Notes: generated by a model from the sequence alone, not told the origin. Numbered from the stretch's first letter, positions 1 to 9,985 are shown. The stretch is DNA of 11,101 nt from Candidatus Enterousia sp. (GCA_045613785.1 JAZLBQ010000002.1:1-11101), one strand, 5' to 3'. Program-made: numbers and translations.

Positions 1-124
1 TGTTATGAAACTCACGCTGCTTCGGATACGGGTCGTAATATAAAAAACGCCGCCGCTCCTCGTCCCGAAGAGTCGCTAGTAAAGCACTTAAGTCTTGCTG
101 GCTAAACCCGTCTAGCTTCCTCAT
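1..124 (-). CDS. terL: Terminase large subunit, N-terminal 41 codons (runs off the left edge of the window)
   Basis: Manual translation from ATG at 124-122, which overlaps the upstream stop as ATGA: MRKLDGFSQQDLSALLATLRDEERRRFLYYDPYPKQREFHN. PYPKQREFH matches the adenine-binding Q-motif region that precedes Walker A in P22-gp2-like terminases (PYxKQREF). Not in the ORF track. Confidence 0.85.
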   Translation of the reverse strand, partial: MRKLDGFSQQDLSALLATLRDEERRRFLYYDPYPKQREFHN

Positions 125-729
125 AGGTCGTCCTCATGTATTGTGATTGGTTGAGGGGTTTGGATTGGTGTAGGGATAGAGATTGGTGTGGGTGTGGATG
201 GAGTAGAGGCGGGCGTGGATGCCGGAGTCGTTAATGCCGCTATCAGCTCCTTAATGCTCTCGTTGCTTAGGTGGCTTAGAGTCGCCTGTGTCTTACGATT
301 ACGAAGGCTGGTGCTTTTGGATGGATTGCTGTAATGTGCCTTTATCAGAGAATACTTCGATGTTGAGACTTTGTGCTCGTGAAGGTCGGTGGTACTTAAG
401 GACTCGTCTAAGTATTGCGATGATAACACCTCTTCTTCTACCTCAGTAAGCGTGTCTAGGAAACTGGAATCGCCATCACGCCGCCAAAAATAATATACAA
501 CACCCCATGGCGGTATGGACTGCGAGTATGTGTGGGGGAAGTATAGTGGTGGCTGATGGTTGGCACAACGCTTCGCATCCTCGTCAAACATCGTGTGAAG
601 GGGGAGACGGTGGGTGCTTATGAGGGATATATAAAAATCCATCAGCTCAGGTGTCTGTGGAGCCAGTAACGAATGGTCTCGATATAGTGAAAGACTGTCA
701 GCAGTCGGAATGGTCGGTGTCTTCTTCAT
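121..729 (-). CDS. terS: Probable terminase small subunit with a Pro/Thr/Ser-rich C-terminal tail; likely start is ATG 729, not TTG 765
   Basis: Directly upstream of terL and coupled to it by an ATGA overlap. The segment IPPWGVVYYFWRRDGDSSFLDTLTEVEEEVL loosely resembles the HTH-plus-helix core of Sf6-type TerS. The TTG at 765 coincides with the -35 hexamer, so the MKKTPT start at 729 is preferred. Confidence 0.65.
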   Translation of the reverse strand: MKKTPTIPTADSLSLYRDHSLLAPQTPELMDFYISLISTHRLPLHTMFDEDAKRCANHQPPLYFPHTYSQSIPPWGVVYYFWRRDGDSSFLDTLTEVEEEVLSSQYLDESLSTTDLHEHKVSTSKYSLIKAHYSNPSKSTSLRNRKTQATLSHLSNESIKELIAALTTPASTPASTPSTPTPISIPTPIQTPQPITIHEDDL

Positions 730-736
730 ACATAAA

Positions 737-765
737 ATAGTAATACCATCATCAGGACATGTCAA
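737..765 (-). promoter_or_regulatory. sigma70-type promoter for terS-terL
   Basis: Minus strand reads TTGACA (765-760), 17-nt spacer, TACTAT (742-737), with an A/T tract upstream. Only 7 nt separate the -10 from ATG 729. Confidence 0.75.
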
Positions 766-897: not shown

Positions 898-955
898 ACG
901 ACCATAACCCAGTGACAACACTGGCACATTAACAGACTAACAAAGGACTACGACT

Positions 956-1255
956 ATGAGTAAAATTGACACTATGTCAGCAATCAGATTCAGAACAGGA
1001 CAACCATACCACAACACTAATACACAAGTGACAGTCAGCGACAATGGCGAATCACGACTATTCTTATGGGGCAACCTAATCGCATGGACAAGCGACAACC
1101 GCAGTAAATTACACGTCAATCAATGTGGTTGGGATACAACGACCACCAACAGCAGATTAAGAGCCTTGGGAGTGGACATCTGCCACAAGCGGACCAAGTT
1201 ATACATTAACGGACAGCCTGCGGACAGTGAAACAACTTATACAATGGCATACTAA
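956..1255 (+). CDS. Small early phage protein of unknown function (99 aa)
   Basis: AAAGGA RBS, upstream promoter and downstream terminator. The pattern L-x-GNLIA...GW-x-T-x-TT-x-SRL-x-AL resembles, from memory, a recurrent phage hypothetical family. Confidence 0.85.
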   Translation: MSKIDTMSAIRFRTGQPYHNTNTQVTVSDNGESRLFLWGNLIAWTSDNRSKLHVNQCGWDTTTTNSRLRALGVDICHKRTKLYINGQPADSETTYTMAY

Positions 1256-1524
1256 CCAGCGACAACGCATGCAGGGCGATTTTTGCCCTGCTTTTTTTAA
1301 CACTAACAAAGGACCTAACGACCATGAGCAAGCGACACACGTACATACAGCATACAACGCATGCGAGAGCCTGCACACGTCACACATGGACAGCGATAGC
1401 GACAGAGATACAACCGAGCCAGCGGACAGCGATACCAGCGACAGCCAAGCGATTAAATCAATGGACATATTACAGTGTGAGCGACAACGGCTTAACACTA
1501 CACACATGGCGACTACAACAGCGA
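1037..1524 (+). repeat. Cluster of 11 same-strand AGCGAY hexamers
   Basis: Copies start at 1037, 1091, 1258, 1331, 1392, 1398, 1428, 1437, 1448, 1480 and 1520. Plus-strand AGCGA seen elsewhere in the window is followed by a purine. Confidence 0.6.
1271..1298 (+). terminator. Intrinsic terminator after the first early gene
   Basis: GCAGGGCGA-TTT-TTGCCCTGC followed by T7. Confidence 0.85.
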
Positions 1525-1533
1525 TTTTATTAA
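1324..1533 (+). CDS. Small basic ORF (69 aa), possibly a decayed relative of the 956-1255 gene
   Basis: Carries the same leader/RBS repeat and shares VSDNG and short DNA blocks with gene 956. The sequence is low-complexity and lies just after a terminator with no clear promoter. Confidence 0.4.
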   Translation: MSKRHTYIQHTTHARACTRHTWTAIATEIQPSQRTAIPATAKRLNQWTYYSVSDNGLTLHTWRLQQRFY

Positions 1534-1539
1534 AAACCC

Positions 1540-1687
1540 AGTATTTTCAATGACTTATTACTAACTGACCCCGATACTAACAAATACGGGTACGCATTGC
1601 CGCACCAAAAATCAAGTAAATTCAATGACTTATCAAATATCAATTTTTTGTCAACATTGAAAAAATAAAGTAAAAACAATGAGTTAT
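1540..1687 (+). repeat. Three direct 19-bp repeats AGTAwwwwCAATGA(C/G)TTAT
   Basis: AGTATTTTCAATGACTTAT (1540-1558), AGTAAATTCAATGACTTAT (1615-1633), AGTAAAAACAATGAGTTAT (1669-1687); offsets are 75 and 54 bp. Confidence 0.85.
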
Positions 1688-1745
1688 TGCGGTTTTCAGA
1701 CCCCAAAAGTTGACAAAATCAAAAAAATGGCGGAAATCGGGCATT

Positions 1746-1908
1746 TGCGTAGACTTCCACATATAGATATATATACATATACATAATGAAAAGAAAATCA
1801 ATCACACATTTTTTAAATATATATATAGATACCCCCCAAGTCTATTTGGGGAAGTCTACGCAGTTGGCTGTTTTCTGGGAAAATATCTATATGGGTAAAT
1901 CTACGCAC
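1746..1908. other. Candidate replication-origin core: 13-bp inverted repeat flanking (AT)n tracts
   Basis: TGCGTAGACTTCC (1746-1758) and GGAAGTCTACGCA (1850-1862) are perfect reverse complements enclosing alternating-AT tracts (about 1761-1786 and 1810-1831). A third partial copy, AAATCTACGCA, is at 1897-1907. Confidence 0.55.
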
Positions 1909-1936
1909 TTGACATTTTAATAAAAAAATATATACT
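1909..1936 (+). promoter_or_regulatory. Early promoter P2
   Basis: TTGACA (1909-1914), 16 nt, TATACT (1931-1936). Followed by CATAACC, as at P1, and by hairpin ACCCT...AGGGT (1950-1970). Confidence 0.75.
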
Positions 1937-2000
1937 TTATGACATAACCACCCTTATAATATAACAGGGTACACAACACTAACATAAAGGACTAACGACT

Positions 2001-2285
2001 ATGCAATGGAAAACTACATTTTGGCAAGATTTTAGTATTGCCGATATATTTGGCATTAACGCAATCAGAGACACATACAATACATGCTATAACCAATACA
2101 AGGACAACACCGAATACGTCACAGAGTTGGTTATAGTATTGAATCACAAGATTTGGCAACACTACGAGAAAAACAATCATGCCGTTGCCAAGGTATATGA
2201 CGAGTTATGGCGAGAGTTGCACGACTATTGCTTGAACACATTAAAGGGCGATGACTTGCGTTATTACATACAAACAACAGATTAA
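2001..2285 (+). CDS. Small helical phage protein of unknown function (94 aa)
   Basis: Strong RBS and promoter. The pattern TTFWxDFSIADxFG...TELVxVLNHKIWQHYE...YxxTD resembles, from memory, a family common in gut phages. Confidence 0.9.
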   Translation: MQWKTTFWQDFSIADIFGINAIRDTYNTCYNQYKDNTEYVTELVIVLNHKIWQHYEKNNHAVAKVYDELWRELHDYCLNTLKGDDLRYYIQTTD

Positions 2286-2302
2286 CCAAAGGACAGTAAA
2301 CT

Positions 2303-2950
2303 ATGTATATTGCTTATGATTATGAGACAGGCGATATTATTGCACAAAGCCCCACGATAATGGGGCTTTCACAAAAAGTAAATATCAACAGAAAAACGAT
2401 TGCTACACACATATCAAAAAACACTAACAGAGAGTTATACCCGATGACATATATGGGTAAAATTTGCTTTATAAATGACAAGTGTACAGAAATCATGACT
2501 AAATTGCCCGATGACGAGTTTGAGCCAGAGATTTTTCACGTATATAAAGCCAGTACAGGCGAGTATATTTGTCCATGTACATTGCAGGCATTATGCGACA
2601 GACTTGATATAAGTGTGAAAGCAGGGGTTGCAAAGTCAGTTGATAACTATGTATTGACTAAATATAATATATTTTTATCACGCACACAGGCGGAAAGTTT
2701 GCCACCAAAGAAATCAGTATATGAGATATTTACTGATGACAATAATTTAGTGTTAAGTACGTTCCACCCAGATAATTATAAGTACTGGAAACCAGTAAAT
2801 ATGACGTTCTACCCGAATCCATATAAACCAAATCATTATATGGTAAAATTGCCTTATGATTTTGATAATTTGCCACCAAAGCACAGGTTGCCAGTGATTG
2901 ACTATTTAGAACGACCAGAAAATATTTTACTTGACAGTGATGATGACTGA
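2303..2950 (+). CDS. NUMOD1/IENR1-like repeat DNA-binding protein with no visible nuclease domain
   Basis: The N-terminus YIAYDYETGDIIAQSPTIMGLSQKVNINRKTI and the internal FHVYKASTGEYICPCTLQALCDRLDIS fit the NUMOD1 beta-hairpin plus HTH pattern. AAAGGAC RBS. Confidence 0.65.
   Translation: MYIAYDYETGDIIAQSPTIMGLSQKVNINRKTIATHISKNTNRELYPMTYMGKICFINDKCTEIMTKLPDDEFEPEIFHVYKASTGEYICPCTLQALCDRLDISVKAGVAKSVDNYVLTKYNIFLSRTQAESLPPKKSVYEIFTDDNNLVLSTFHPDNYKYWKPVNMTFYPNPYKPNHYMVKLPYDFDNLPPKHRLPVIDYLERPENILLDSDDD
2346..2369 (+). other. Perfect 9-bp hairpin inside the 5' end of the CDS; possible weak terminator or processing site
   Basis: AAAGCCCCA-CGATAA-TGGGGCTTT. Confidence 0.4.
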
Positions 2951-2959
2951 TAGTATTAT
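2931..2959 (+). promoter_or_regulatory. Early promoter P3 for the MoxR-VWA operon
   Basis: TTGACA (2931-2936), 17 nt, TATTAT (2954-2959). Followed by hairpin CCTGCC-AACA-GGCAGG (2971-2986). Confidence 0.75.
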
Positions 2960-3015
2960 ACCACCAAGCCCCTGCCAACAGGCAGGAAATTAAACAAAAC
3001 ATGAAAGGACTTTAC

Positions 3016-3828
3016 ATGACTAACAAAGAGTTGTACAAAAAGTACATTAAAAACAATATTCCATTACTTTTAATAGGTAAATCGGGTACAGGTAAATCAG
3101 AAATTATTAAATCTATTGCAAGCGAGTTAAATATGCCAGTGGTTGACTTGCGTATGTCACAGTTGCCACCAGAGGACTTAAATGGTTTGCCAGCCCCGAC
3201 AGAGGACAAAAAAGCATTTACATATCTGTTGCCAGAGTGGTTTTATAAATTCCAGCCAGACACACCATTTGTGTTGTTTTTAGATGAAATCAACCAAGCC
3301 ACACCAAATACAATTAACGCATTGTATGCGTTGGTACATGATAAAATGTTGGCAGGGCGAGTAAACCCAAATATGCGAGTAGTTGCCGCAGGCAATTTGA
3401 TAGATGAATCAGACTACTTAAATGAATTGCCAAAACCATTGCTGAATCGTTTTGTGGTAAAAGCACACGAGGCAAAGGCAAAAGAGGTTATAGATTATTT
3501 GTCAGAAAAATACAAAGACAATGAAAAAGCACAACGAATCTTGAAAGCGGTACAGAAATTAGATTGGTTGGAAAACATGAACCCACGAGCATTAGAACGT
3601 TGTATAAAAATCTTGACTGTACATAAAATCAAGGACAAAGATGAGATATTGTGCCAAGCAAACGGCAATGAGGGTTTGGCAAGTATTATTATAGACAGTT
3701 TGTCAGACAAAGAGCCAGAAACATGCGATGAAACCTCAACAGAGGAATTGATTAACGCAGTGAAAAATGGCAAAGCGGTTGAAATGATAACAGAGGAAAT
3801 AAAGGAGTTATTAAATGACAAAAACTAA
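3016..3828 (+). CDS. MoxR-family AAA+ ATPase
   Basis: Walker A GKSGTGKS, DLRMSQ..PEDLNGLP, Walker B LFLDEIN, sensor I AAGN, arginine finger LLNRF. Start moved to ATG 3016, which follows AAAGGAC at 3004-3010. Confidence 0.9.
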   Translation: MTNKELYKKYIKNNIPLLLIGKSGTGKSEIIKSIASELNMPVVDLRMSQLPPEDLNGLPAPTEDKKAFTYLLPEWFYKFQPDTPFVLFLDEINQATPNTINALYALVHDKMLAGRVNPNMRVVAAGNLIDESDYLNELPKPLLNRFVVKAHEAKAKEVIDYLSEKYKDNEKAQRILKAVQKLDWLENMNPRALERCIKILTVHKIKDKDEILCQANGNEGLASIIIDSLSDKEPETCDETSTEELINAVKNGKAVEMITEEIKELLNDKN

Positions 3829-4336
3829 TAAATGGTATGTTATCAAAGTTGATGACAGATATGTACACGATATTACACTAGACATTGAAAACACCCGATT
3901 TGAAATTGAGGGTACAGCCGACAAAGATGATATTAAACACGCAAGGTTGTTTGATTCCGAGGGCAGAAAAATAAAACTGTTAGGACTAGGGTTAATATCT
4001 GATAAAAATACGACAATACAGTCTTTTTCTGTTGACGTTCGCACTGAAATTGTGGACAAGTCTGATGACTATGTATTCCAGTGTGAAACCAAAGGCGGAA
4101 AAAAGATATATTTTAGCAGATTCCACAAAGAACATGGTATTGGCATGACTAAACCAGAGTTAGAACAAGACATTGCGTTGGCACAAGCCATGGTCTGCGA
4201 TGAAACACAAATAATAGCATTGCAGAATCTGTTTGCCGACATGGAAAGCAAGGACATATTAAATGATGACTTGCAAGGGGCAACATGGACAGCAATACCA
4301 GTAAAAAAGACTTTTGAAAACATAAAAGAAATATAA
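3815..4336 (+). CDS. Hypothetical protein (173 aa) between the AAA and VWA genes
   Basis: AAAGGAG RBS at 3801-3807; start overlaps the end of the AAA gene; no recognised motif. Confidence 0.85.
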   Translation: MTKTNKWYVIKVDDRYVHDITLDIENTRFEIEGTADKDDIKHARLFDSEGRKIKLLGLGLISDKNTTIQSFSVDVRTEIVDKSDDYVFQCETKGGKKIYFSRFHKEHGIGMTKPELEQDIALAQAMVCDETQIIALQNLFADMESKDILNDDLQGATWTAIPVKKTFENIKEI

Positions 4337-4342
4337 AAATCA

Positions 4343-4362
4343 GTGGGGTGGAAACACCCCAC
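4343..4362 (+). other. Intergenic GAAA-tetraloop hairpin (mRNA stability or processing element)
   Basis: GTGGGGTG-GAAA-CACCCCAC, with no U-tract on the plus strand. Confidence 0.6.
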
Positions 4363-4383
4363 AAGCACATGAAAGGACTAACA

Positions 4384-5688
4384 ATGACTAGAAAAAATTA
4401 TGGTATTATGGGGTACACAAAAAATCACAAAAACCCCAGCACAAACAGCAGTGTAAAATATCTTGCAGATTTATTTGATATAAAAGACAATACTAAAATT
4501 GAACAGATTTTAGAAAAAGAGTTTAATATCAGAGACAATTATGAAAAAGAAATGGTTGCAGAAACTGTAAAATCGGTTTTTTTGGAAAAACAGTTAGAAA
4601 AACACAATCGGGCTAGATTATGCCCCGAGGTAAATTTAACACCATACACAGATAATACAATCAGAGGTATTATAAAAACATATTTTCAAGAGCGAGACAG
4701 GGTTAGTGAAAATCGCAAAAACTATGAAAACAAAACAGCAGATGAACAAATAAAAGCAAGCAATGAATATTGGGGTTTTCATGACAAAAACAGTCAAGCA
4801 AGAGAAAAATACAGAAAAGTATTAAAACAGAGCAAAAAACGGCAACAGCAACAGCAATCATCAGCCAATAAGAATCAACAGCCTGCGTTGACACAAGCAG
4901 ACTTGAATAAAATGGTTGCTGAATCAAAGCAATCATTGCCAGATGACATGCAATTCCTTGAATCATATTTAGATGATGACTATACAAAACATGCAGTAAA
5001 AGAAATTGAATCGCACGCAGGTCGTGAAATATTCCCTATGCAAGGTCAAGGGAGGCACGAAACAATGGCAAAATTAAAGACTGATAAACAAGGCAAATAT
5101 GAATCTATTGGTTTGCACAAAGCATTGACAAAGATTTTAGATGACATATTAGGTCAGACAGAAATTCGGTCAGTAGAGCGAGGGTATAACAGACCAAGCC
5201 GATTTAGTCACTTTGTTAAAGGTTGTTTTTTGCCAGTGTACAAATCAAATAAACCACGCAAACGACCTGCGTTTTTCATTGATTCGTCAGGCAGTATGAG
5301 CATACGCAGGGGGCATTTTAATTGCATAACGTCTGCGATTGGGGCATTTTTGCGAGTACACCACAGACGAATCAGCGAATTGAGACCAAAGTATTATTCT
5401 TTCACTGGTGGTTTTGACGTAAAAGAAATTGACATTAAAAATCAGTTGCCTGTTGCATGCGGTGGAACAAGCACAAGATTTTTGTGCAATGTAAATAACA
5501 AAGAAAAGTCAATAATCATAACAGACGCAGAATTTGAAAACTATGAATTGGCAGAATTAAGACTGTGGGCAACGAATCACAGGACAGCCGATATTCATTG
5601 GATTACAAATAACAAAAGACATGCAGAGAGATTGAAAGGGGCATTAACAGGGTTTGGAAATCAAAAAGTGCATTATGCAGAATTTTAA
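4384..5688 (+). CDS. VWA (MIDAS) domain protein, probable partner of the MoxR ATPase
   Basis: C-terminal FFIDSSGSM (DxSxS), GGT and IIITDA, preceded by YNRPSR....LP, as in DUF2201-type VWA proteins. Central poly-Q linker. Start moved to ATG 4384, after AAAGGAC at 4372-4378. Confidence 0.88.
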   Translation: MTRKNYGIMGYTKNHKNPSTNSSVKYLADLFDIKDNTKIEQILEKEFNIRDNYEKEMVAETVKSVFLEKQLEKHNRARLCPEVNLTPYTDNTIRGIIKTYFQERDRVSENRKNYENKTADEQIKASNEYWGFHDKNSQAREKYRKVLKQSKKRQQQQQSSANKNQQPALTQADLNKMVAESKQSLPDDMQFLESYLDDDYTKHAVKEIESHAGREIFPMQGQGRHETMAKLKTDKQGKYESIGLHKALTKILDDILGQTEIRSVERGYNRPSRFSHFVKGCFLPVYKSNKPRKRPAFFIDSSGSMSIRRGHFNCITSAIGAFLRVHHRRISELRPKYYSFTGGFDVKEIDIKNQLPVACGGTSTRFLCNVNNKEKSIIITDAEFENYELAELRLWATNHRTADIHWITNNKRHAERLKGALTGFGNQKVHYAEF

Positions 5689-5894: not shown

Positions 5895-6150
5895 AACAAA
5901 AGCACAGATTCAATCTGAATTAGATGACATGGCAAAACTTGCCATGTCTTATAAAAACATTGCACTAGATTGTTTGAAAAAAGAATCAACGCATGATGAA
6001 ATTTTGGGTATGTTGTGGTATATCGTTGCCTTGATTTTGTCACATGGTCACAGTTTTGTGGGGCATGCGTGTAGTGTAATAGCACTTGTAATCAGCATAC
6101 ATTATGCGATACAATCATGGAAAACATATAAGAAAAAAAGACAATTATGA
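5887..6150 (+). CDS. Small protein with two predicted transmembrane helices (87 aa)
   Basis: ILGMLWYIVALIL and ACSVIALVISIHYAI followed by a KKKR tail. Leader AAAAGAGGTAAAAA is shared with the previous gene. Confidence 0.8.
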   Translation: MTKTKAQIQSELDDMAKLAMSYKNIALDCLKKESTHDEILGMLWYIVALILSHGHSFVGHACSVIALVISIHYAIQSWKTYKKKRQL

Positions 6151-6416
6151 TAGAAATATATGATAGTGCAAACGATTATATTGCCAGTGTTGAATCTTAT
6201 GTGCAAGCCAGCAGATTAACAGGCGAGCAAGCCAGCACAGTACGCAATCGGTTAAACAACCCGATTGAGGGCAGATATAATTATTACACAAAGGACAATC
6301 GTGGTTATTTACTGCGGTTGTCTTTTACATTATACACACTAGCAAGGCAGACAGAATACCCGACACCACAGCAAATTGAAATCATCGGCAAAGCAGTAAG
6401 GGAATTATTAAAATGA
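6147..6416 (+). CDS. Single NUMOD1-like HTH DNA-binding protein (89 aa)
   Basis: MIEIYDSANDYIASVESYVQASRLTGEQASTVRNRL fits the NUMOD1/IENR1 pattern. ATGA coupling on both sides. Confidence 0.7.
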   Translation: MIEIYDSANDYIASVESYVQASRLTGEQASTVRNRLNNPIEGRYNYYTKDNRGYLLRLSFTLYTLARQTEYPTPQQIEIIGKAVRELLK

Positions 6417-6841
6417 CAGACACAAAATTTTTATTAGAAAAAAATGTCCGCAATAACATTATTTTATTGTCGGCAAAGAGCGGTATTACACTTTTTAACA
6501 ACCCAGTAGGCACAGCATGGGCAGGAAAGTATAACCCCAGCACACACAGTGTAATTGCCCCACGAGCGGTTAAATATGGGCTTGCAGTAGGGTCATCAGA
6601 TTTGATTGGTATAACACCTGTAAAAATAACGCAAGATATGGTCGGCAAAACCATTGGCGTTTTTACTGGCGTTGAGGTAAAATTAGATAAAAATGGCAAG
6701 TACAAAGAAACAGCGGAACAGAAAAAGTTTGGAAAATTTATTGAAAAAAATGGCGGTTTTTATATACTTGCAGACAGTTATGGCGATATATTAAATTTTT
6801 TTAATTCCAAAGCCTTGACATTTGGAATCGCAGCATTATAA
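6413..6841 (+). CDS. VRR-NUC domain nuclease (phage Holliday-junction/flap endonuclease type)
   Basis: E...NIIL, LFNNPVG, GLAVGSSDLIG, GVEVK and EQKKF...GG motifs of the PD-(D/E)xK VRR-NUC family. Confidence 0.88.
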   Translation: MTDTKFLLEKNVRNNIILLSAKSGITLFNNPVGTAWAGKYNPSTHSVIAPRAVKYGLAVGSSDLIGITPVKITQDMVGKTIGVFTGVEVKLDKNGKYKETAEQKKFGKFIEKNGGFYILADSYGDILNFFNSKALTFGIAAL

Positions 6842-6842
6842 T
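6804..6842 (+). promoter_or_regulatory. Promoter P4 with an operator-like inverted repeat around the -35
   Basis: TTGACA (6815-6820), 16 nt, TATAAT (6837-6842). ATTCCAAA (6804-6811) and TTTGGAAT (6821-6828) form a perfect 8-bp inverted repeat. Confidence 0.75.
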
Positions 6843-6878: not shown

Positions 6879-7784
6879 ATGGTAGTCATAAACCCTTTCA
6901 AAAGTGCTAGTAGCATGAAGGCGAAAACCCCGATTATTGTTAGTCTGGTCGGGGAATCGTCTTGCGGTAAAACCTATTCCGCATTAAGACTTGCAACAGG
7001 CTTAACAAATAACCCAAAAGAAATTTTTTTAATTGATACTGAAAATCGTGGGGCTATGTACGCAGATATTTTTGGCGATTATCAAGTCGCTAACGTTTCC
7101 GAGTACGCAGTAGCGGTTGGCAGACCCACGCACAGACCACAGAATTACATTGAATTGATTGACATTGCTAAAAAAAATGGGGCAAAAGTGTTAATCATTG
7201 ATTCGTTGTCTGACCCATGGGCTGGCGATGGCGGTTGCGTTTCATGGGCAGCGGCATTAAAAGAAAAATACGAAAGCACACACAATGGCAGACAGGCTGG
7301 AATATCGGTATGGGCATTGCCAAAAGCCTCGTATTCCGAAATGATGAATAAAATATGTAATTCATCAATGAATATTATTTTTACTTTCCGCACCAAAGAA
7401 ATAGTTGATGTTCAAAAAAACGAATACGGTAAAGCGGTGGTTAAGGAAGAAAAGAAAATTGAAATTGTACGTGAATCGGGCAATAAATATAACATTACTT
7501 GGGAATTACACCTTGACGGCACCACAAAAAAGATTGCGAAAATCGGCAAGACGTTTGACGGTGGCGATTGGATATTCAAAAGTGGCGAATTGCTTACAGA
7601 AGAACACGCAAAACGCATGTTAGAGTGGCAAAACGCAACAAAAGAATCGGTTATAAGTGCTGGCAGACAGGCGAAAGACCGAAAGGCTTGGTTTGAATCA
7701 TTAAACCCTGCCGAAAAACGGTTAGCAACACAATTTGCTGACGAAATCAAACAAGAACAAACAATAACAGAAGAGAATTTATAA
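6879..7784 (+). CDS. sak4: Sak4-like / AAA_24 RecA-fold ATPase (ssDNA-annealing recombinase)
   Basis: Walker A GESSCGKTYSAL, LIDTENRG, Walker B LIIDSLS..W...GG. Lies next to an SSB-like gene and an exonuclease. Start moved to ATG 6879, after AAGGA. Confidence 0.8.
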   Translation: MVVINPFKSASSMKAKTPIIVSLVGESSCGKTYSALRLATGLTNNPKEIFLIDTENRGAMYADIFGDYQVANVSEYAVAVGRPTHRPQNYIELIDIAKKNGAKVLIIDSLSDPWAGDGGCVSWAAALKEKYESTHNGRQAGISVWALPKASYSEMMNKICNSSMNIIFTFRTKEIVDVQKNEYGKAVVKEEKKIEIVRESGNKYNITWELHLDGTTKKIAKIGKTFDGGDWIFKSGELLTEEHAKRMLEWQNATKESVISAGRQAKDRKAWFESLNPAEKRLATQFADEIKQEQTITEENL

Positions 7785-8143: not shown

Positions 8144-8680
8144 ATGTCAAAAAACATACACGAAATTACTATAACAGCAGAAGAAAAAGTTAAAGAATAT
8201 GACTGTGGAAAGTGTGTCGGGTACGATTGCCATACAACATACAAAGGCAAAAGCAAAGACGGCATCACACCACCGATGGCAACGGCACTGATTGGCGATT
8301 TATTGGCGATTCAAGATTTGGAACCAGAAGATATTGACGAAATCTTGACTCTTATAATGAAAAAAATCTTGCCAAACGCAACATGTTTGTCAACAAAAGG
8401 CAAATCATTAGATGAATCAATGGAAGAATCTATTGAAATCCATAAGAAAAAGGGTAAAAAGTCTGCGAAAGATACGTTTATGGAACTTATGGAAGATGAA
8501 CGTTGGCGTGATTTGTTGTTTGATAGAACAGCCTTGAAACAAGACAAATTAGGCAAGAAAATATGTGCATGGATGGTCACTGCATTGAAAGACATTGAAG
8601 ATTTGGGCGGTAAAGTACAGAAGAAAAATTTGGAAAAAGTACTGTTCGAAGATGTCTTGGTAGAAGAAGATGACGAATAA
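8144..8680 (+). CDS. Hypothetical charged protein (178 aa)
   Basis: AAAGGAA RBS; acidic C-terminus; no recognised domain. Confidence 0.85.
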   Translation: MSKNIHEITITAEEKVKEYDCGKCVGYDCHTTYKGKSKDGITPPMATALIGDLLAIQDLEPEDIDEILTLIMKKILPNATCLSTKGKSLDESMEESIEIHKKKGKKSAKDTFMELMEDERWRDLLFDRTALKQDKLGKKICAWMVTALKDIEDLGGKVQKKNLEKVLFEDVLVEEDDE

Positions 8681-8692
8681 TAAGGTTATACA

Positions 8693-8830
8693 ATGACACG
8701 AAATCAGATAAGGAAAAGAATCGCAGAGATTGAACAGTTTATATTAGTAAACCCAGAACAAGCAAAAATACTTGGGTTTAATGAACTGTTAAAACAGTTG
8801 CGAAAAGACCTTGAAGATTGTAAAAGATGA
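8693..8830 (+). CDS. Small helical-hairpin protein (45 aa), not in the ORF track
   Basis: TAAGG RBS, then MTRNQIRKRIAEIEQFILVNPEQAKILGFNELLKQLRKDLEDCKR*. Fills the gap in the operon and has an amphipathic pattern. Confidence 0.7.
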   Translation: MTRNQIRKRIAEIEQFILVNPEQAKILGFNELLKQLRKDLEDCKR

Positions 8831-8839
8831 GTGTATAAT
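8811..8839 (+). promoter_or_regulatory. Promoter P5 driving the structured RNA
   Basis: TTGAAG (8811-8816), 17 nt, TATAAT (8834-8839). Expected start is about 8845-8847. Confidence 0.75.
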
Positions 8840-8845
8840 CAAACA

Positions 8846-9119
8846 GTTTGGTGGAATCTCTATGGGCCTTCTTTCTCTCCATTCCTTCCGTCCTTTAAGA
8901 TTCCACCACCAAGTTCGGGCATGTGACCTCCTTTAAAGGGCTAAGTAGTGTATATTGGCTCTCAGAAAACTGTGTTATGCTGGTTTTGTTATTTCCAGTC
9001 AAAACATGTCGTCACGCATACAGCCCAGCTACCGTATCACGCTAGTCAAAAGCATGTAATAACACAGAAATATACACCATGTGGGGAACAAGACCTCAAG
9101 TTGTTGCCCCACATTTTTT
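8846..9119 (+). ncRNA. Unrecognised structured RNA (sRNA or regulatory leader) with anti-SD motifs
   Basis: ~300-nt gap with no credible ORF in an otherwise tightly packed operon. Has its own promoter and terminator. Stems: 8849-8859/8898-8908 (11 bp, perfect), 8948-8956/9069-9077, 8970-8978/9059-9067. CU-rich loops. Confidence 0.7.
9079..9119 (+). terminator. Intrinsic terminator closing the structured RNA, just upstream of the exonuclease RBS
   Basis: ATGTGGGGAACAA-GACCTCAAG-TTGTT(G)CCCCACAT followed by a T-run. Confidence 0.8.
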
Positions 9120-9139
9120 AAAACGAAAGGAACTAAGAC

Positions 9140-9985
9140 ATGAACTTATACAGAAATATATCAATCGCTGATTATCACAGCGAAAAAACAATCCCATCTC
9201 GCTCAGCATTAGTACAGGCATTGAAATCGCCTGCACACTTAAACATGTACCTAAACGGCACACACAAAGTCAACGACAGTATGAAGTTAGGCACTTTTAT
9301 TCATGACTTCATTGAAAATGGCATTAAAATATCGGCAGATTGGACAACAAAACAAGAATTATATCAACGTGCCACAAACGGCAGACCAGCAGGCAGCCCA
9401 AAACTTGATGACGAGGGCAACCCGCTTTTTTCTTATGTAAATACAGTCGATGAAAGTCTTGCACTTACACCTGCAAAGTCTGTACTAGCGGTGTCGATGA
9501 TGAAAGCTATTGAAAACGACATGTTTATTGTGTCGGCTATGGACTTAGATGACTTGGTTATTGAACCGACATTTGTTGGGGAAATCAACGGCATGAAAGT
9601 AAAAGCAAGACCAGACTTGGCGTTTACAAACAACGATTCATTGATTGAAATTAAAACAACCTCATCGCTAGACCCAGCCGACATTGGTCGTGAATTTTTT
9701 GAATACGGTTATGACATGCAGGCGTATTTAGAACTAGAACTTAGCGGTGCAGATAGGGTTTATTTTTATTTTGTATCATCAGAAACACCGTCAGGCACAG
9801 CAAGATTTTGTGTCGACAGGGAATCACAGTGGTACAAATTGGGTAAATTTAGAACTGAAAAAGCATTAGAATTGTATTATAAACACAAAGATTCGGTTGC
9901 CGAATCTTATACGCAAGCGGATATTGAGGTGCCGTTGTGCTACAAAGCTGCGAATTACATGGCTGAGAACGGCATAGAGGCTTAA
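9140..9985 (+). CDS. RecE/exodeoxyribonuclease VIII-like PD-(D/E)xK exonuclease (DUF3799 type)
   Basis: YH...SRSAL...KSPAH, MKLGTFIH, IEPTF, KARPD, IEIKT and YGYDMQA motifs; AAAGGAA RBS. Confidence 0.88.
   Translation: MNLYRNISIADYHSEKTIPSRSALVQALKSPAHLNMYLNGTHKVNDSMKLGTFIHDFIENGIKISADWTTKQELYQRATNGRPAGSPKLDDEGNPLFSYVNTVDESLALTPAKSVLAVSMMKAIENDMFIVSAMDLDDLVIEPTFVGEINGMKVKARPDLAFTNNDSLIEIKTTSSLDPADIGREFFEYGYDMQAYLELELSGADRVYFYFVSSETPSGTARFCVDRESQWYKLGKFRTEKALELYYKHKDSVAESYTQADIEVPLCYKAANYMAENGIEA

What the first reader, a model, noticed from the sequence alone, without database searches (positions are those of the whole stretch)
8846..9119. Unannotated phage sRNA carrying several anti-Shine-Dalgarno motifs that complement the phage's own early RBSs
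Seen: a promoter-to-terminator unit with no credible ORF. Domain 1 is an 11-bp stem presenting a 22-nt almost pure pyrimidine loop (CUUCUUUCUCUCCAUUCCUUCC) followed by GUCCUUU (8890-8896). The linker holds GACCUCCUUU (8925-8934), and the terminator loop repeats GACCUC (9092-9097). GUCCUUU is the exact complement of the AAAGGAC RBS before six early ORFs (942, 1308, 1986, 2288, 3004, 4372), and ACCUC complements the GAGGU RBS of genes 5706 and 5887. The downstream genes at 6879, 8144 and 9140 use AAGGAU or AAAGGAA instead. Known: ACCUCCUUU matches the 16S rRNA 3' anti-SD, and CU-rich loop sRNAs (alphaproteobacterial cuckoo RNAs, AbcR, staphylococcal RsaE/RNAIII) act by occluding RBSs. Inference: a phage-encoded multi-target translational repressor that shuts off early genes and/or host SD-led mRNAs. 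Caveat: GUCC may be partly paired with GGGC at 8864-8867, and short matches to SD sequences are generic.
Basis: partly seen in the sequence, partly recalled or inferred. Interest (0 to 1): 0.85.

Follow-up and report, generated by a model that had tools for sequence, protein, structure and literature searches.

The report
Conserved structured leader RNA before phage recE
A roughly 275-base non-coding stretch in an uncultured gut/rumen phage is a real, conserved, intricately folded RNA placed directly in front of the phage's recombination and helicase genes; it more likely controls those genes than silences the phage's early genes.

Summary
The unit is real. A metagenome relative (L003) and two contigs from other sequencing runs carry the same gap between the same genes. 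Window and L003 differ by five compensatory double changes in five helices, with a sixth by hand. No Rfam family matches, and no copy was found in the phage, IMG/VR or GTDB collections searched.

The target-specific reading does not hold up. GUCCUUU and the hairpin-loop GACCUC are not conserved, and GUCCUUU is mostly paired. Translation start regions are not the best predicted partners of the CU-rich loop. Conserved are the pyrimidine-rich character of the 22-28-nt loop, ACCUCCUUU, and an adjacent start-site-like AAAGGGCUAAGUAGUG.

Only 20 bases, and no promoter, separate the 3' hairpin from the recE start. The U-tract is missing in L003. My best reading (about 0.4) is a cis-acting leader that gates the recE-helicase genes. 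The terminated product may also exist as a small RNA. Expression is untested: the one RNA run laid gave no reads.

The parts
8811..8839 (+). Promoter-like site: -35 TTGAAG (8811-8816), 17-nt spacer, -10 TATAAT (8834-8839). The -35 lies in the last codons of the 45-aa ORF.
   Evidence: 10 of 12 matches. Both hexamers are identical in L003. No listed change in either hexamer in the X2 contig. The transcription start is inferred, not measured.
8846..9119 (+). The whole predicted RNA (about 274 nt) if transcription starts about 7 nt after the -10 and ends at the T-tract.
   Evidence: No reads in the one RNA run laid, so the ends are predictions.
8849..8908 (+). D1 hairpin: 11-bp stem 8849-8859/8898-8908, inner GGGC/GUCC pairs 8864-8867/8890-8893, 22-nt CU-rich loop 8868-8889.
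   Evidence: L003 folds to the same kind of hairpin with a different stem sequence and a 28-nt loop. The listed changes in X2 include C-G to A-U at 8858/8899 and three changes to G-U.
8868..8889 (+). Pyrimidine-rich loop. The core UCUCCAUUCCUUC (8876-8888) is identical in L003.
   Evidence: unpaired probability 1.00. X2 changes here are mostly C>T or inserted C.
8917..8927 (+). 5' strands of helix A (GGGC 8917-8920 and GUGAC 8923-8927). They pair with 9023-9026 and 9011-9015.
   Evidence: U-A to C-G double change at 8924/9014. By hand, C-G to U-A at 8920/9023 if L003 is shifted one column.
8925..8934 (+). GACCUCCUUU. Nine bases (ACCUCCUUU) equal the 3' tail of the host 16S rRNA.
   Evidence: Invariant in L003, with no listed change in X2.
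8935..8950 (+). Start-site-like motif AAAGGGCUAAGUAGUG. It resembles the phage's early motif AAAGGACUAAC...AUG. Base 8935 is the only variable position (A, U or C).
8948..9077 (+). Domain closed by P1 (8948-8956/9069-9077) and P2 (8970-8978/9059-9067). Inside are P3 (8980-8983/8995-8998), P4 (9005-9008/9053-9056), the 3' strands of helix A (9011-9026) and hairpin H5 (9028-9031/9043-9046).
   Evidence: (I10, I12), 38, 45 and 48: one compensatory double change each in P1, P2, P4 and H5. The insertions in X2 and X4 fall in the H5 loop. P3 has no covariation.
9079..9119 (+). 3' hairpin (13 pairs, -16.4 kcal/mol) plus T6. It has the features of an intrinsic terminator in this phage.
   Evidence: The lower stem is identical in L003, but the tail there is AAAUAUU. 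The 3' arm is also readable in the N-terminal extensions of four RecE relatives.
9126..9142 (+). RBS (AAAGGAA) and ATG (9140) of the RecE-like gene, 20 nt after the T-tract.
8948..9121 (+). Open frame from GUG (57 codons) through the core and the hairpin. This is a candidate translated leader frame, not a conserved protein.

Best explanation
The gap 8831-9139 encodes a real, conserved, highly structured non-coding RNA of a family not yet described. It has three parts:
- a 5' hairpin (D1) that presents a 22-28-nt pyrimidine-rich loop;
- a ~170-nt core in which helix A crosses the P1/P2 stack, forming a pseudoknot or two alternative folds;
- a G+C-rich 3' hairpin.

I think it most likely works in cis, as the leader of the RecE-like nuclease and helicase genes. 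Transcripts from its own promoter, or from the Sak4 operon upstream, must pass through it. In this phage they meet a hairpin with a U6 tract 20 nt before the recE RBS. The fold of the leader would then decide how much transcription and translation reaches recE and the helicase.

Candidate contacts are ACCUCCUUU or the CU-rich loop pairing with the recE Shine-Dalgarno sequence, and the loop pairing with the G-rich 5' arm of the hairpin.

Shown: conservation, base-pair covariation, absence of a conserved protein, and position.

Inferred: transcription, termination, and any switch or trigger.

The terminated ~274-nt product may also persist as a small RNA.
For: Conservation.
- The same gap lies between the same genes in L003.
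- 36 of 38 columns are identical over 8925-8962, and 16 of 16 over 8972-8987.
- The flanking genes are 53-84% identical at the DNA level.

Structure.
- Of 48 proposed pairs, 97.9% of cells are paired.
- Five pairs changed on both sides, one each in helix A2, P1, P2, P4 and H5. Slid controls gave 0-1 such pairs, and 16 of 500 shuffles reached the observed value.
- A sixth double change (8920/9023) was found by hand.

Independent check with X2.
- Of its 11 listed differences in 8909-9119, none lies in helix A, P1, P2, P3, P4, the H5 stem or the lower 3' stem.
- Two lie in the apex of the 3' hairpin. Note that 18 substitution rows and 4 indel rows of that table are not shown.

Not a conserved protein.
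- Window and L003 indels are +2, +3, +11, +6 and -3.
- The two translations share only about the first 7 residues.
- No protein in the 5.8-billion-sequence set matches.

Cis position.
- There are 20 nt between T9119 and ATG 9140.
- L003 keeps the hairpin but not the U-tract, so there the element must be part of the recE mRNA.
- N-terminal extensions of 4 RecE relatives begin in the hairpin's 3' arm. In 3 of the 4 this is 11-14 codons before the recE start.

Candidate contacts.
- In the window, the recE SD is predicted to pair with 8929-8934. Its unpaired probability is 0.20, against 0.69 without the leader, and 2 of 40 shuffled leaders were as low.
- The loop against the hairpin's 5' arm gives -9.2 kcal/mol (window) and -9.8 (L003), in the lowest 1% of 500 random 13-mers.
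Against: - No expression data. The RNA run X21 gave 0 reads anywhere on the stretch, which is no test.
- Only two full sequences are available, so covariation rests on few events.
- The SD-sequestration prediction fails in L003: unpaired probability 0.54, and 36 of 40 shuffled leaders were as low or lower.
- No antiterminator helix with covariation was found.
- The segments in the proposed long-range contacts are invariant, so they are untested by comparison.
- A 5' hairpin plus a strong terminator is also the classic shape of a free-standing small RNA.
- One relative (P0010) has about 38 codons between the hairpin arm and the recE start.
- No ligand, protein partner or trigger can be named.
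Confidence: 0.4

Rival explanations
1. A free-standing phage small RNA uses its CU-rich loop, GUCCUUU and ACCUCCUUU to pair in trans with the Shine-Dalgarno regions of the phage's own early genes (the AAAGGAC class) and/or host mRNAs, and so shuts off their translation.
For: - The window has a promoter-to-terminator unit.
- The loop is fully unpaired in predictions and stays pyrimidine-rich in L003 and X2.
- ACCUCCUUU is conserved and equals the 16S tail.
- AAAGGAC is truly enriched at early gene starts.
- C-rich unpaired motifs that occlude SD sites are a known small-RNA mechanism (PMC2790875; I saw only the search listing and the start of the abstract).
Against: - GUCCUUU is absent from L003, changed in X2 (8893 C>T and an insertion after 8890) and mostly paired in the window.
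- The loop GACCUC is not conserved.
- None of the 25 best duplex sites of the loop on the contig lies at a gene start.
- No enriched target appears in the host genome: 22 near-complements against 13 for shuffles.
- L003 lacks the U-tract needed to release a discrete RNA.
- Complementarity of 5-7 nt to SD sequences is generic.
Confidence: 0.12
2. A trans-acting RNA of another kind. It could be a decoy or scaffold that binds a protein or the ribosome through the pyrimidine-rich loop, the 16S-tail mimic and the start-site-like motif. Possible partners are an S1-like or Rho-like pyrimidine binder, a factor that recognises the 16S 3' end, or a phage translational regulator of the AAAGGACUAAC start sites.
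For: - Sequence conservation in segments predicted to be unpaired is stronger than pairing needs: 8925-8947, with only 8935 varying.
- The loop keeps its composition while its sequence drifts. That fits recognition by a protein rather than by base pairing.
- The pseudoknotted core has the complexity of a binding or sensing RNA.
Against: - No partner is identified.
- The neighbouring ORFs have no family match, even at E<=1.
- The tight linkage to recE is not explained.
Confidence: 0.2
3. A translated leader frame. Ribosomes start at GUG 8948, 7 nt after AAAGGG, read through the core and the hairpin, and stop at or next to the recE start. Translation of the leader would melt the hairpin and couple recE translation to it. 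The RNA fold would gate this start, because P1 covers the GUG and H2 or UCCU covers the SD.
For: - The motif AAAGGGCUAAGUAGUG resembles the phage's own start sites.
- The frame is open for 57 codons in the window, with its stop at 9119-9121. It is open for 70 codons in L003, where the stop TGA overlaps the recE ATG as ATGA.
- Shuffles give 0.05 and 0.02 for such open frames.
- In L003 the other two frames hold 4 and 5 stops.
- The 6-nt insertion in X2 and X4 keeps the frame (checked by hand).
Against: - In the window all three frames are poor in stops, with 1-2 each.
- The peptides are unrelated after about 7 residues.
- No gene caller's product matches.
- GUG with a G in the SD is a weak start.
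- X2 has two single-base deletions in the hairpin apex.
Confidence: 0.12
4. A replication element: a primer or R-loop transcript, or a folded single-stranded DNA signal, inside the recombination and replication module.
For: - It lies between the Sak4-like gene and the RecE-like and helicase genes.
- It has its own promoter.
- Compensatory changes would also preserve a DNA fold.
Against: - No iterons or AT-rich unwinding stretch are present.
- G-U pairs in several helices favour RNA.
- A promoter plus a terminator fits a defined RNA.
Confidence: 0.05
5. A small protein gene (57 aa) or no function at all.
For: An ORF of 57 aa exists.
Against: - Frame-breaking indels and unrelated translations.
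- No homologue found.
- Conservation with compensatory pairs.
Confidence: 0.03

Closest known systems
Promoter-proximal leader transcripts ended by a terminator in front of phage genes: lambda pR'-tR' '6S' transcript with Q, and the HK022 put RNAs (recalled; one search gave only listings that mention put)
   Same: A promoter is followed by a structured non-coding RNA of 70-270 nt, then a terminator, then the next block of phage genes with no promoter of their own.
   Different: There is no sequence or Rfam match. The core here is a ~170-nt pseudoknotted fold, not two simple stem-loops. The U-tract is not conserved in L003. No antiterminator protein is identified, and no effect on RNA polymerase is shown.
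Riboswitch or attenuator leaders with an aptamer closed by P1 next to an intrinsic terminator
   Same: A conserved multi-helix core has invariant joining segments. Its closing helix P1 ends 1 nt before a terminator hairpin, just upstream of the regulated ORF.
   Different: No known riboswitch class matches. No conserved antiterminator was found. The downstream genes are a nuclease and a helicase, not metabolic genes or transporters. No ligand is known.
C- or CU-rich anti-Shine-Dalgarno small RNAs: staphylococcal RsaE and RNAIII with UCCC motifs (PMC2790875, listing and abstract start only); alphaproteobacterial cuckoo and AbcR RNAs (recalled)
   Same: Unpaired pyrimidine-rich loops, and a CCUCC-type sequence able to pair with SD regions.
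   Different: There is one very long loop rather than repeated short C-rich motifs. There is no homology to those families. The exact complements proposed are not conserved, no target enrichment is seen, and the element abuts the gene it may control.
T4 gene 32 mRNA leader: a pseudoknot plus an unstructured tract that a phage DNA-metabolism protein binds to control translation (recalled)
   Same: A pseudoknotted leader with a long unstructured tract, in front of a phage recombination or replication gene.
   Different: The unstructured tract here is CU-rich and sits in a hairpin loop, not A/U-rich around the RBS. No binding protein is known and there is no sequence likeness.

Membership tests
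Any Rfam 15 family (4227 models) | Match to the covariance model at or near the gathering score | tested here: not met
   Window, both strands, E<=1: 0 matches. L003 2500-3134, E<=10: 2 weak matches (16.1 and 12.6 bits against cut-offs of 81 and 36), both inside the 45-aa ORF and outside the RNA.
C/CU-rich anti-SD small RNAs (RsaE, RNAIII, cuckoo type) | Discrete transcript with its own promoter and terminator | tested here: inconclusive
   Predicted in the window. The U-tract is absent in L003. No RNA reads were obtained.
C/CU-rich anti-SD small RNAs (RsaE, RNAIII, cuckoo type) | Pyrimidine-rich motif exposed in unpaired loops and conserved | tested here: met
   Loop unpaired probability is 1.00 (window) and 0.99 (L003). 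The core UCUCCAUUCCUUC is identical in L003, and the composition is kept in X2.
C/CU-rich anti-SD small RNAs (RsaE, RNAIII, cuckoo type) | Conserved complementarity to the SD regions of defined targets | tested here: not met
   GUCCUUU and the loop GACCUC are not conserved. No gene start is among the 25 best duplex sites. There is no enrichment in the host genome.
Terminator-based attenuator or riboswitch leader | Structured element between a promoter and an intrinsic terminator, with no promoter before the downstream ORF | tested here: met
   20 nt lie between the T-tract and the recE ATG.
Terminator-based attenuator or riboswitch leader | Terminator (hairpin plus U-tract) conserved among relatives | tested here: not met
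   The hairpin is conserved, but the tail in L003 is AAAUAUU. The tails inferred from RecE N-terminal extensions vary.
Terminator-based attenuator or riboswitch leader | Mutually exclusive antiterminator fold, and a ligand or factor that chooses between folds | tested here: inconclusive
   The loop can pair with the hairpin's 5' arm at -9.2/-9.8 kcal/mol, but both segments are invariant. Helix A against P1/P2 may be a pseudoknot or alternative folds. A ligand is not testable with these tools.
Group I intron (considered because the strand order resembles P3-P7-P3'-P8-P7') | Match to the intron core, and flanking exons that join into one gene | tested here: not met
   No RF00028 match. The 45-aa ORF has its own stop in both phages, and recE has its own RBS and start that aligns with the N-termini of relatives.
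Small protein gene | Reading frame and peptide conserved among relatives | tested here: not met
tRNA or tmRNA | ARAGORN detection | tested here: not met
   0 genes in the window.

The most novel reading that the evidence does not exclude
This is a new class of pseudoknotted phage riboregulator. Its invariant unpaired stretch copies the 16S rRNA 3' tail (ACCUCCUUU) next to a copy of the phage's own start-site motif. Either the RNA senses a cellular signal (a ligand, the ribosome, or a factor that reads the 16S tail) to time the recombination and replication genes, or it acts as a decoy for SD-led mRNAs or for a host factor or defence enzyme that recognises the anti-SD tail.
Probability: 0.12. 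Interest if true: 0.8.

Novelty: new variant of a known kind. Interest (0 to 1): 0.5.

Why it matters
Phages of uncultured gut and rumen bacteria with tiny genomes are almost unstudied, and few structured RNAs of phages have known roles.

This is a compact, testable candidate. It has a defined promoter, a ~170-nt core with helices supported by compensatory changes, an unusually long pyrimidine-only loop, and a perfect copy of the ribosome's anti-Shine-Dalgarno tail. All of this sits in front of the recombination and helicase genes.

If it gates those genes, it would be a new RNA-based timing device in a phage replication module. If it acts in trans, it would be a new kind of phage small RNA or decoy.

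Either way it would be a new RNA family for comparative databases. About 19 further relatives already exist in public assemblies that I could not read.

Tried and rejected
**Searches for more copies that found nothing**
- blastn of 8700-9200 against 50,697 phage records: no match.
- Own genome: only the element itself.
- DNA search in 60 relatives: 0.
- Covariance model R1 in 150 genomes of the order: 0.
- Sak4-like protein in 298 genomes of the family: 0.
- IMG/VR patterns: 0.
- IMG/VR pattern: one hit (L006). It lies inside a coding region and does not match R1, so I dropped it as chance.
- GTDB contig pattern: 0.
- RecE alignment in GTDB contigs: 0.
- RecE alignment in IMG/VR: one relative at 34% identity (L004) with no gap upstream.
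- Sak4 alignment in IMG/VR: 0.
- tblastn against phage records: only distant relatives, at most about 31% identity.

**RNA evidence**
- No RNA holder was listed among the runs.
- The one RNA run laid (X21) gave 0 reads on the whole stretch, and X1 gave 0 contigs. Neither is a test.

**Ideas rejected**
- Small protein.
- tRNA or tmRNA.
- Group I intron (the flanking ORFs are complete).
- AGTGTATAAT as a repeated phage promoter motif: 4 matches against 1.3 expected, reached by 12 of 200 shuffles.
- A 16-nt identity of 8843-8858 to host contig C7. It lies inside an ORF in the same sense as that ORF's mRNA, so it cannot pair with it.
- The best duplex sites of the loop (150-210 and 590-610, + strand) are the antisense of a minus-strand gene, so they are not plausible targets.
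- Family scans of neighbouring ORFs at E<=1 gave nothing usable.

**Literature**
- The searches turned up no description of such an element.
- These were narrow word searches. I read no paper beyond listings and the starts of abstracts, so they do not show that the element is unpublished.

**Not available**
- I did not run R-scape or IntaRNA. Two sequences are too few for R-scape, so I used pair counts and simple duplex energies instead.

Full report
**Context**

The window is the whole of contig C2 (11,101 nt) of a 1.04-Mb, 26-contig genome. Its G+C content (0.39) is close to that of the other contigs.

The contig looks like the early and replication region of a phage:
- an AAA ATPase at 3001-3828;
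- an endonuclease-like ORF at 6413-6841;
- a Sak4-like ATPase at 6879-7784;
- a RecE/DUF3799 nuclease at 9140-9985;
- an SF2 helicase from 9987.

The phage was not found in 298 other genomes of the host's family. It was not found in IMG/VR or among 50,697 phage records. Parts of it occur in contigs of gut and bovine-gut metagenome runs: 20 rows from 14 studies, with word shares of 0.12-0.56. The host 16S rRNA ends in the usual ...GGAUCACCUCCUUU.

**The observation**

- The 309-nt gap 8831-9139 lies between a 45-aa ORF and the RecE-like gene.
- It begins with TTGAAG-17-TATAAT at 8811-8839.
- An 11-bp perfect stem follows at 8849-8859/8898-8908, with a 22-nt loop that is all C or U except one A.
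- GUCCUUU, GACCUCCUUU and GACCUC sit where stated.
- The gap ends in a -16.4 kcal/mol hairpin with T6.

AAAGGAC is truly enriched: 8 matches against 1.79 expected, reached by 0 of 200 shuffles. It is part of a longer early start-site motif, AAAGGACUAAC...AUG, at 956, 1324, 2001, 2303, 3016 and 4384.

A single 7-mer complement of that motif in 11 kb is what chance gives. Folding energy alone is unremarkable: z = -2.38 for the window and -1.13 for L003.

**Relatives**

The RecE-like protein has 19 relatives at 50-76% identity in public assemblies, but I could reach the DNA of only one. L003 is a 3,950-nt metagenome contig with the same gene order and the same gap at 82% mean column identity.

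Laying contigs of other runs on 8400-9600 gave two more variants:
- A 12,148-nt contig of X2 spans the whole stretch, with 53 substitutions and 21 gap letters.
- A 612-nt contig of X4 covers 8889-9494.
- That table hides 18 substitution rows and 4 indel rows, so what I read from it is a lower bound.

**Structure**

I listed all helices of 4 or more pairs that both sequences can form. I then counted pairs on the alignment of the core (A4). This supports:
- P1, 8948-8956/9069-9077;
- P2, 8970-8978/9059-9067;
- P4, 9005-9008/9053-9056;
- H5, 9028-9031/9043-9046;
- helix A2, 8923-8927/9011-9015.

Each of these five has one pair changed on both sides (A-U to G-C, or U-A to G-C or C-G). Overall there are 48 pairs, 97.9% of cells are paired, and 5 pairs carry double changes. 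Partners slid by 1-3 columns gave 0-1 double changes, and 16 of 500 shuffles reached the observed value.

By hand, helix A1 (GGGC 8917-8920 with GCCC 9023-9026) becomes GGGU/ACCC in L003 if that row is shifted by one column. That would be a sixth compensatory change.

Helix A starts 5' of P1 and ends inside the P2-enclosed domain, so it crosses P1 and P2. The core is therefore either a pseudoknot or two alternative folds, both under selection.

The D1 stem differs in sequence between the window and L003, yet both fold to a hairpin with a 22- or 28-nt loop. In X2 the listed changes include C-G to A-U at 8858/8899 and three changes to G-U. By hand, the two bases inserted in the 5' arm together with the five changes in the 3' arm can be laid as one unbroken helix in a shifted register.

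None of X2's 11 listed differences in 8909-9119 touches helix A, P1-P4, the H5 stem or the lower 3' stem. The 6-nt insertion shared by X2 and X4 falls in the H5 loop.

G-U pairs in several helices mean that the + strand is the folded one. No Rfam family matches, and ARAGORN finds nothing.

**Coding**

A 57-codon frame opens at GUG 8948, but it does not encode a conserved protein:
- Window and L003 differ by indels of 2, 3, 11, 6 and 3 nt.
- The translations agree only for about 7 residues.
- Nothing in the 5.8-billion-protein set resembles it.

The frame is nevertheless open in both phages right up to recE. The stop is at 9119-9121 in the window, and in L003 the stop overlaps the recE start as ATGA. 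Shuffles give 0.05 and 0.02 for such openness. The start has a phage-like motif, AAAGGGCUAAGUAGUG. I therefore keep a translated but sequence-free leader frame as a rival.

**What is conserved and what is not**

Not conserved:
- GUCCUUU is absent in L003 and altered in X2.
- The hairpin-loop GACCUC.
- The U-tract: L003 has AAAUAUU, and the tails implied by RecE N-terminal extensions vary.

Conserved:
- the promoter hexamers;
- the pyrimidine-rich nature of the loop and its core UCUCCAUUCCUUC;
- the block 8925-8962, with 36 of 38 columns identical and 8935 the one free position among three variants;
- 8972-8987, with 16 of 16 identical;
- the lower 3' stem;
- ACGAAAGGA before recE.

The 3' arm of the hairpin can also be read in the N-terminal extensions that gene callers gave four more distant RecE relatives. 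These begin MPH or MLPH. In 3 of the 4 the start lies 11-14 codons before the true start, and in 1 it lies 38 codons before.

**Tests of the trans anti-SD model**

- The loop is predicted free, GUCCUUU mostly paired (0.35) and GACCUCCUUU half free (0.61 in the window, 0.41 in L003).
- A duplex scan of the loop along the contig puts G-rich + strand sites at 150-210 and 590-610 on top. These are antisense to a minus-strand gene. No gene start is among the best 25 sites.
- The host genome has 22 near-complements of the loop core, against a mean of 13 for shuffled cores, and none is striking.

The conserved features thus allow SD-type pairing in general. The specific targets proposed are not supported.

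**Mechanism**

Only 20 nt, and no promoter, lie between the T-tract and the recE ATG. No terminator separates the upstream operon from the element. L003 keeps the hairpin without a U-tract. The element is therefore part of whatever mRNA reaches recE and the helicase.

I favour a cis-acting leader, at 0.4. In this phage it would act by conditional termination at 9079-9119 and/or by masking the recE RBS.

Two candidate contacts exist:
- UCCUUU 8929-8934 with the recE SD. This is predicted strongly in the window (unpaired 0.20 against 0.69 without the leader; 2 of 40 shuffled leaders as low). It is not predicted in L003 (0.54; 36 of 40).
- The loop core with the G-rich 5' arm of the hairpin, at -9.2 and -9.8 kcal/mol, in the lowest 1% of random 13-mers.

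Neither contact can be tested by covariation, because the segments are invariant.

Conservation, pairing, position and the lack of a conserved protein are shown. Transcription, termination, switching and any trigger are inferred.

**Comparison and novelty**

The layout recalls the lambda pR'-tR' leader and the HK022 put RNAs, riboswitch-type attenuators, and the T4 gene 32 leader. The loop recalls C-rich anti-SD small RNAs. All of these are recalled knowledge, apart from search listings. The element is a member of none of them: it has no model match, its motifs are not repeated short C-rich boxes, and the terminator is not conserved.

I file it as a new variant of a known kind, namely a phage regulatory leader or small RNA, and as a candidate new RNA family. 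So far it is seen in one small clade of uncultured gut and rumen phages.

Noticed in passing
window 942-4384: Six early genes share an extended start-site motif, AAAGGACUAAC(GAC)U-AUG. For ORFs 3001 and 4348 it points to later true starts at 3016 and 4384. A seventh AAAGGAC at 6290 lies inside ORF 6147-6416.
   Followed up: partly
window 1534-2000: This is a 467-nt stretch with only two tiny ORFs. It holds (A/G)TCTACGCA-like boxes near 1750 (inverted), 1852 and 1896, AT-alternating runs at 1763-1785 and 1818-1828, and a near-consensus promoter TTGACA-16-TATACT at 1909-1936. It could be an operator or control region, or an origin.
   Followed up: no
window 1271-1297: A strong intrinsic terminator (9-bp stem, T7) lies right after the first rightward gene 956-1255. 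The early region therefore also begins with a gene-plus-terminator unit.
   Followed up: no
window 121-765 (- strand): A 214-aa ORF with no family match has a Thr/Pro/Ser-rich C-terminal tail...TPASTPASTPSTPTPISIPTPIQTPQP.... Its CU-rich mRNA resembles the D1 loop in composition. Its antisense strand is the best predicted duplex partner of the loop, at -18.6 kcal/mol.
   Followed up: partly
window 6815-6842: A perfect consensus promoter, TTGACA-16-TATAAT, lies just upstream of the Sak4-like gene's likely start at 6879.
   Followed up: no
window 6879-7781 and L003 563-1462: The Sak4-like protein is 94% identical between the two phages. The first 40 residues of RecE are 68% identical, and the 178/195-aa ORF between them is only 53% identical at the DNA level. 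Divergence across the module is very uneven.
   Followed up: partly
window 8830-8839 and 8947-8956: The -10 region (AGTGTATAAT) and the 5' strand of P1 (AGTGTATATT) are near-identical 10-mers. In read-through transcripts from upstream, the first copy could compete for the 3' strand of P1. In L003 only the true P1 strand carries the compensating change.
   Followed up: partly
G000 (whole genome): The genome that the contig is binned with is very small (1.04 Mb, 96.5% complete), and its relatives are 0.6-1.1 Mb. None of 298 family members carries this phage's Sak4-like gene, so the host assignment rests on binning only.
   Followed up: partly
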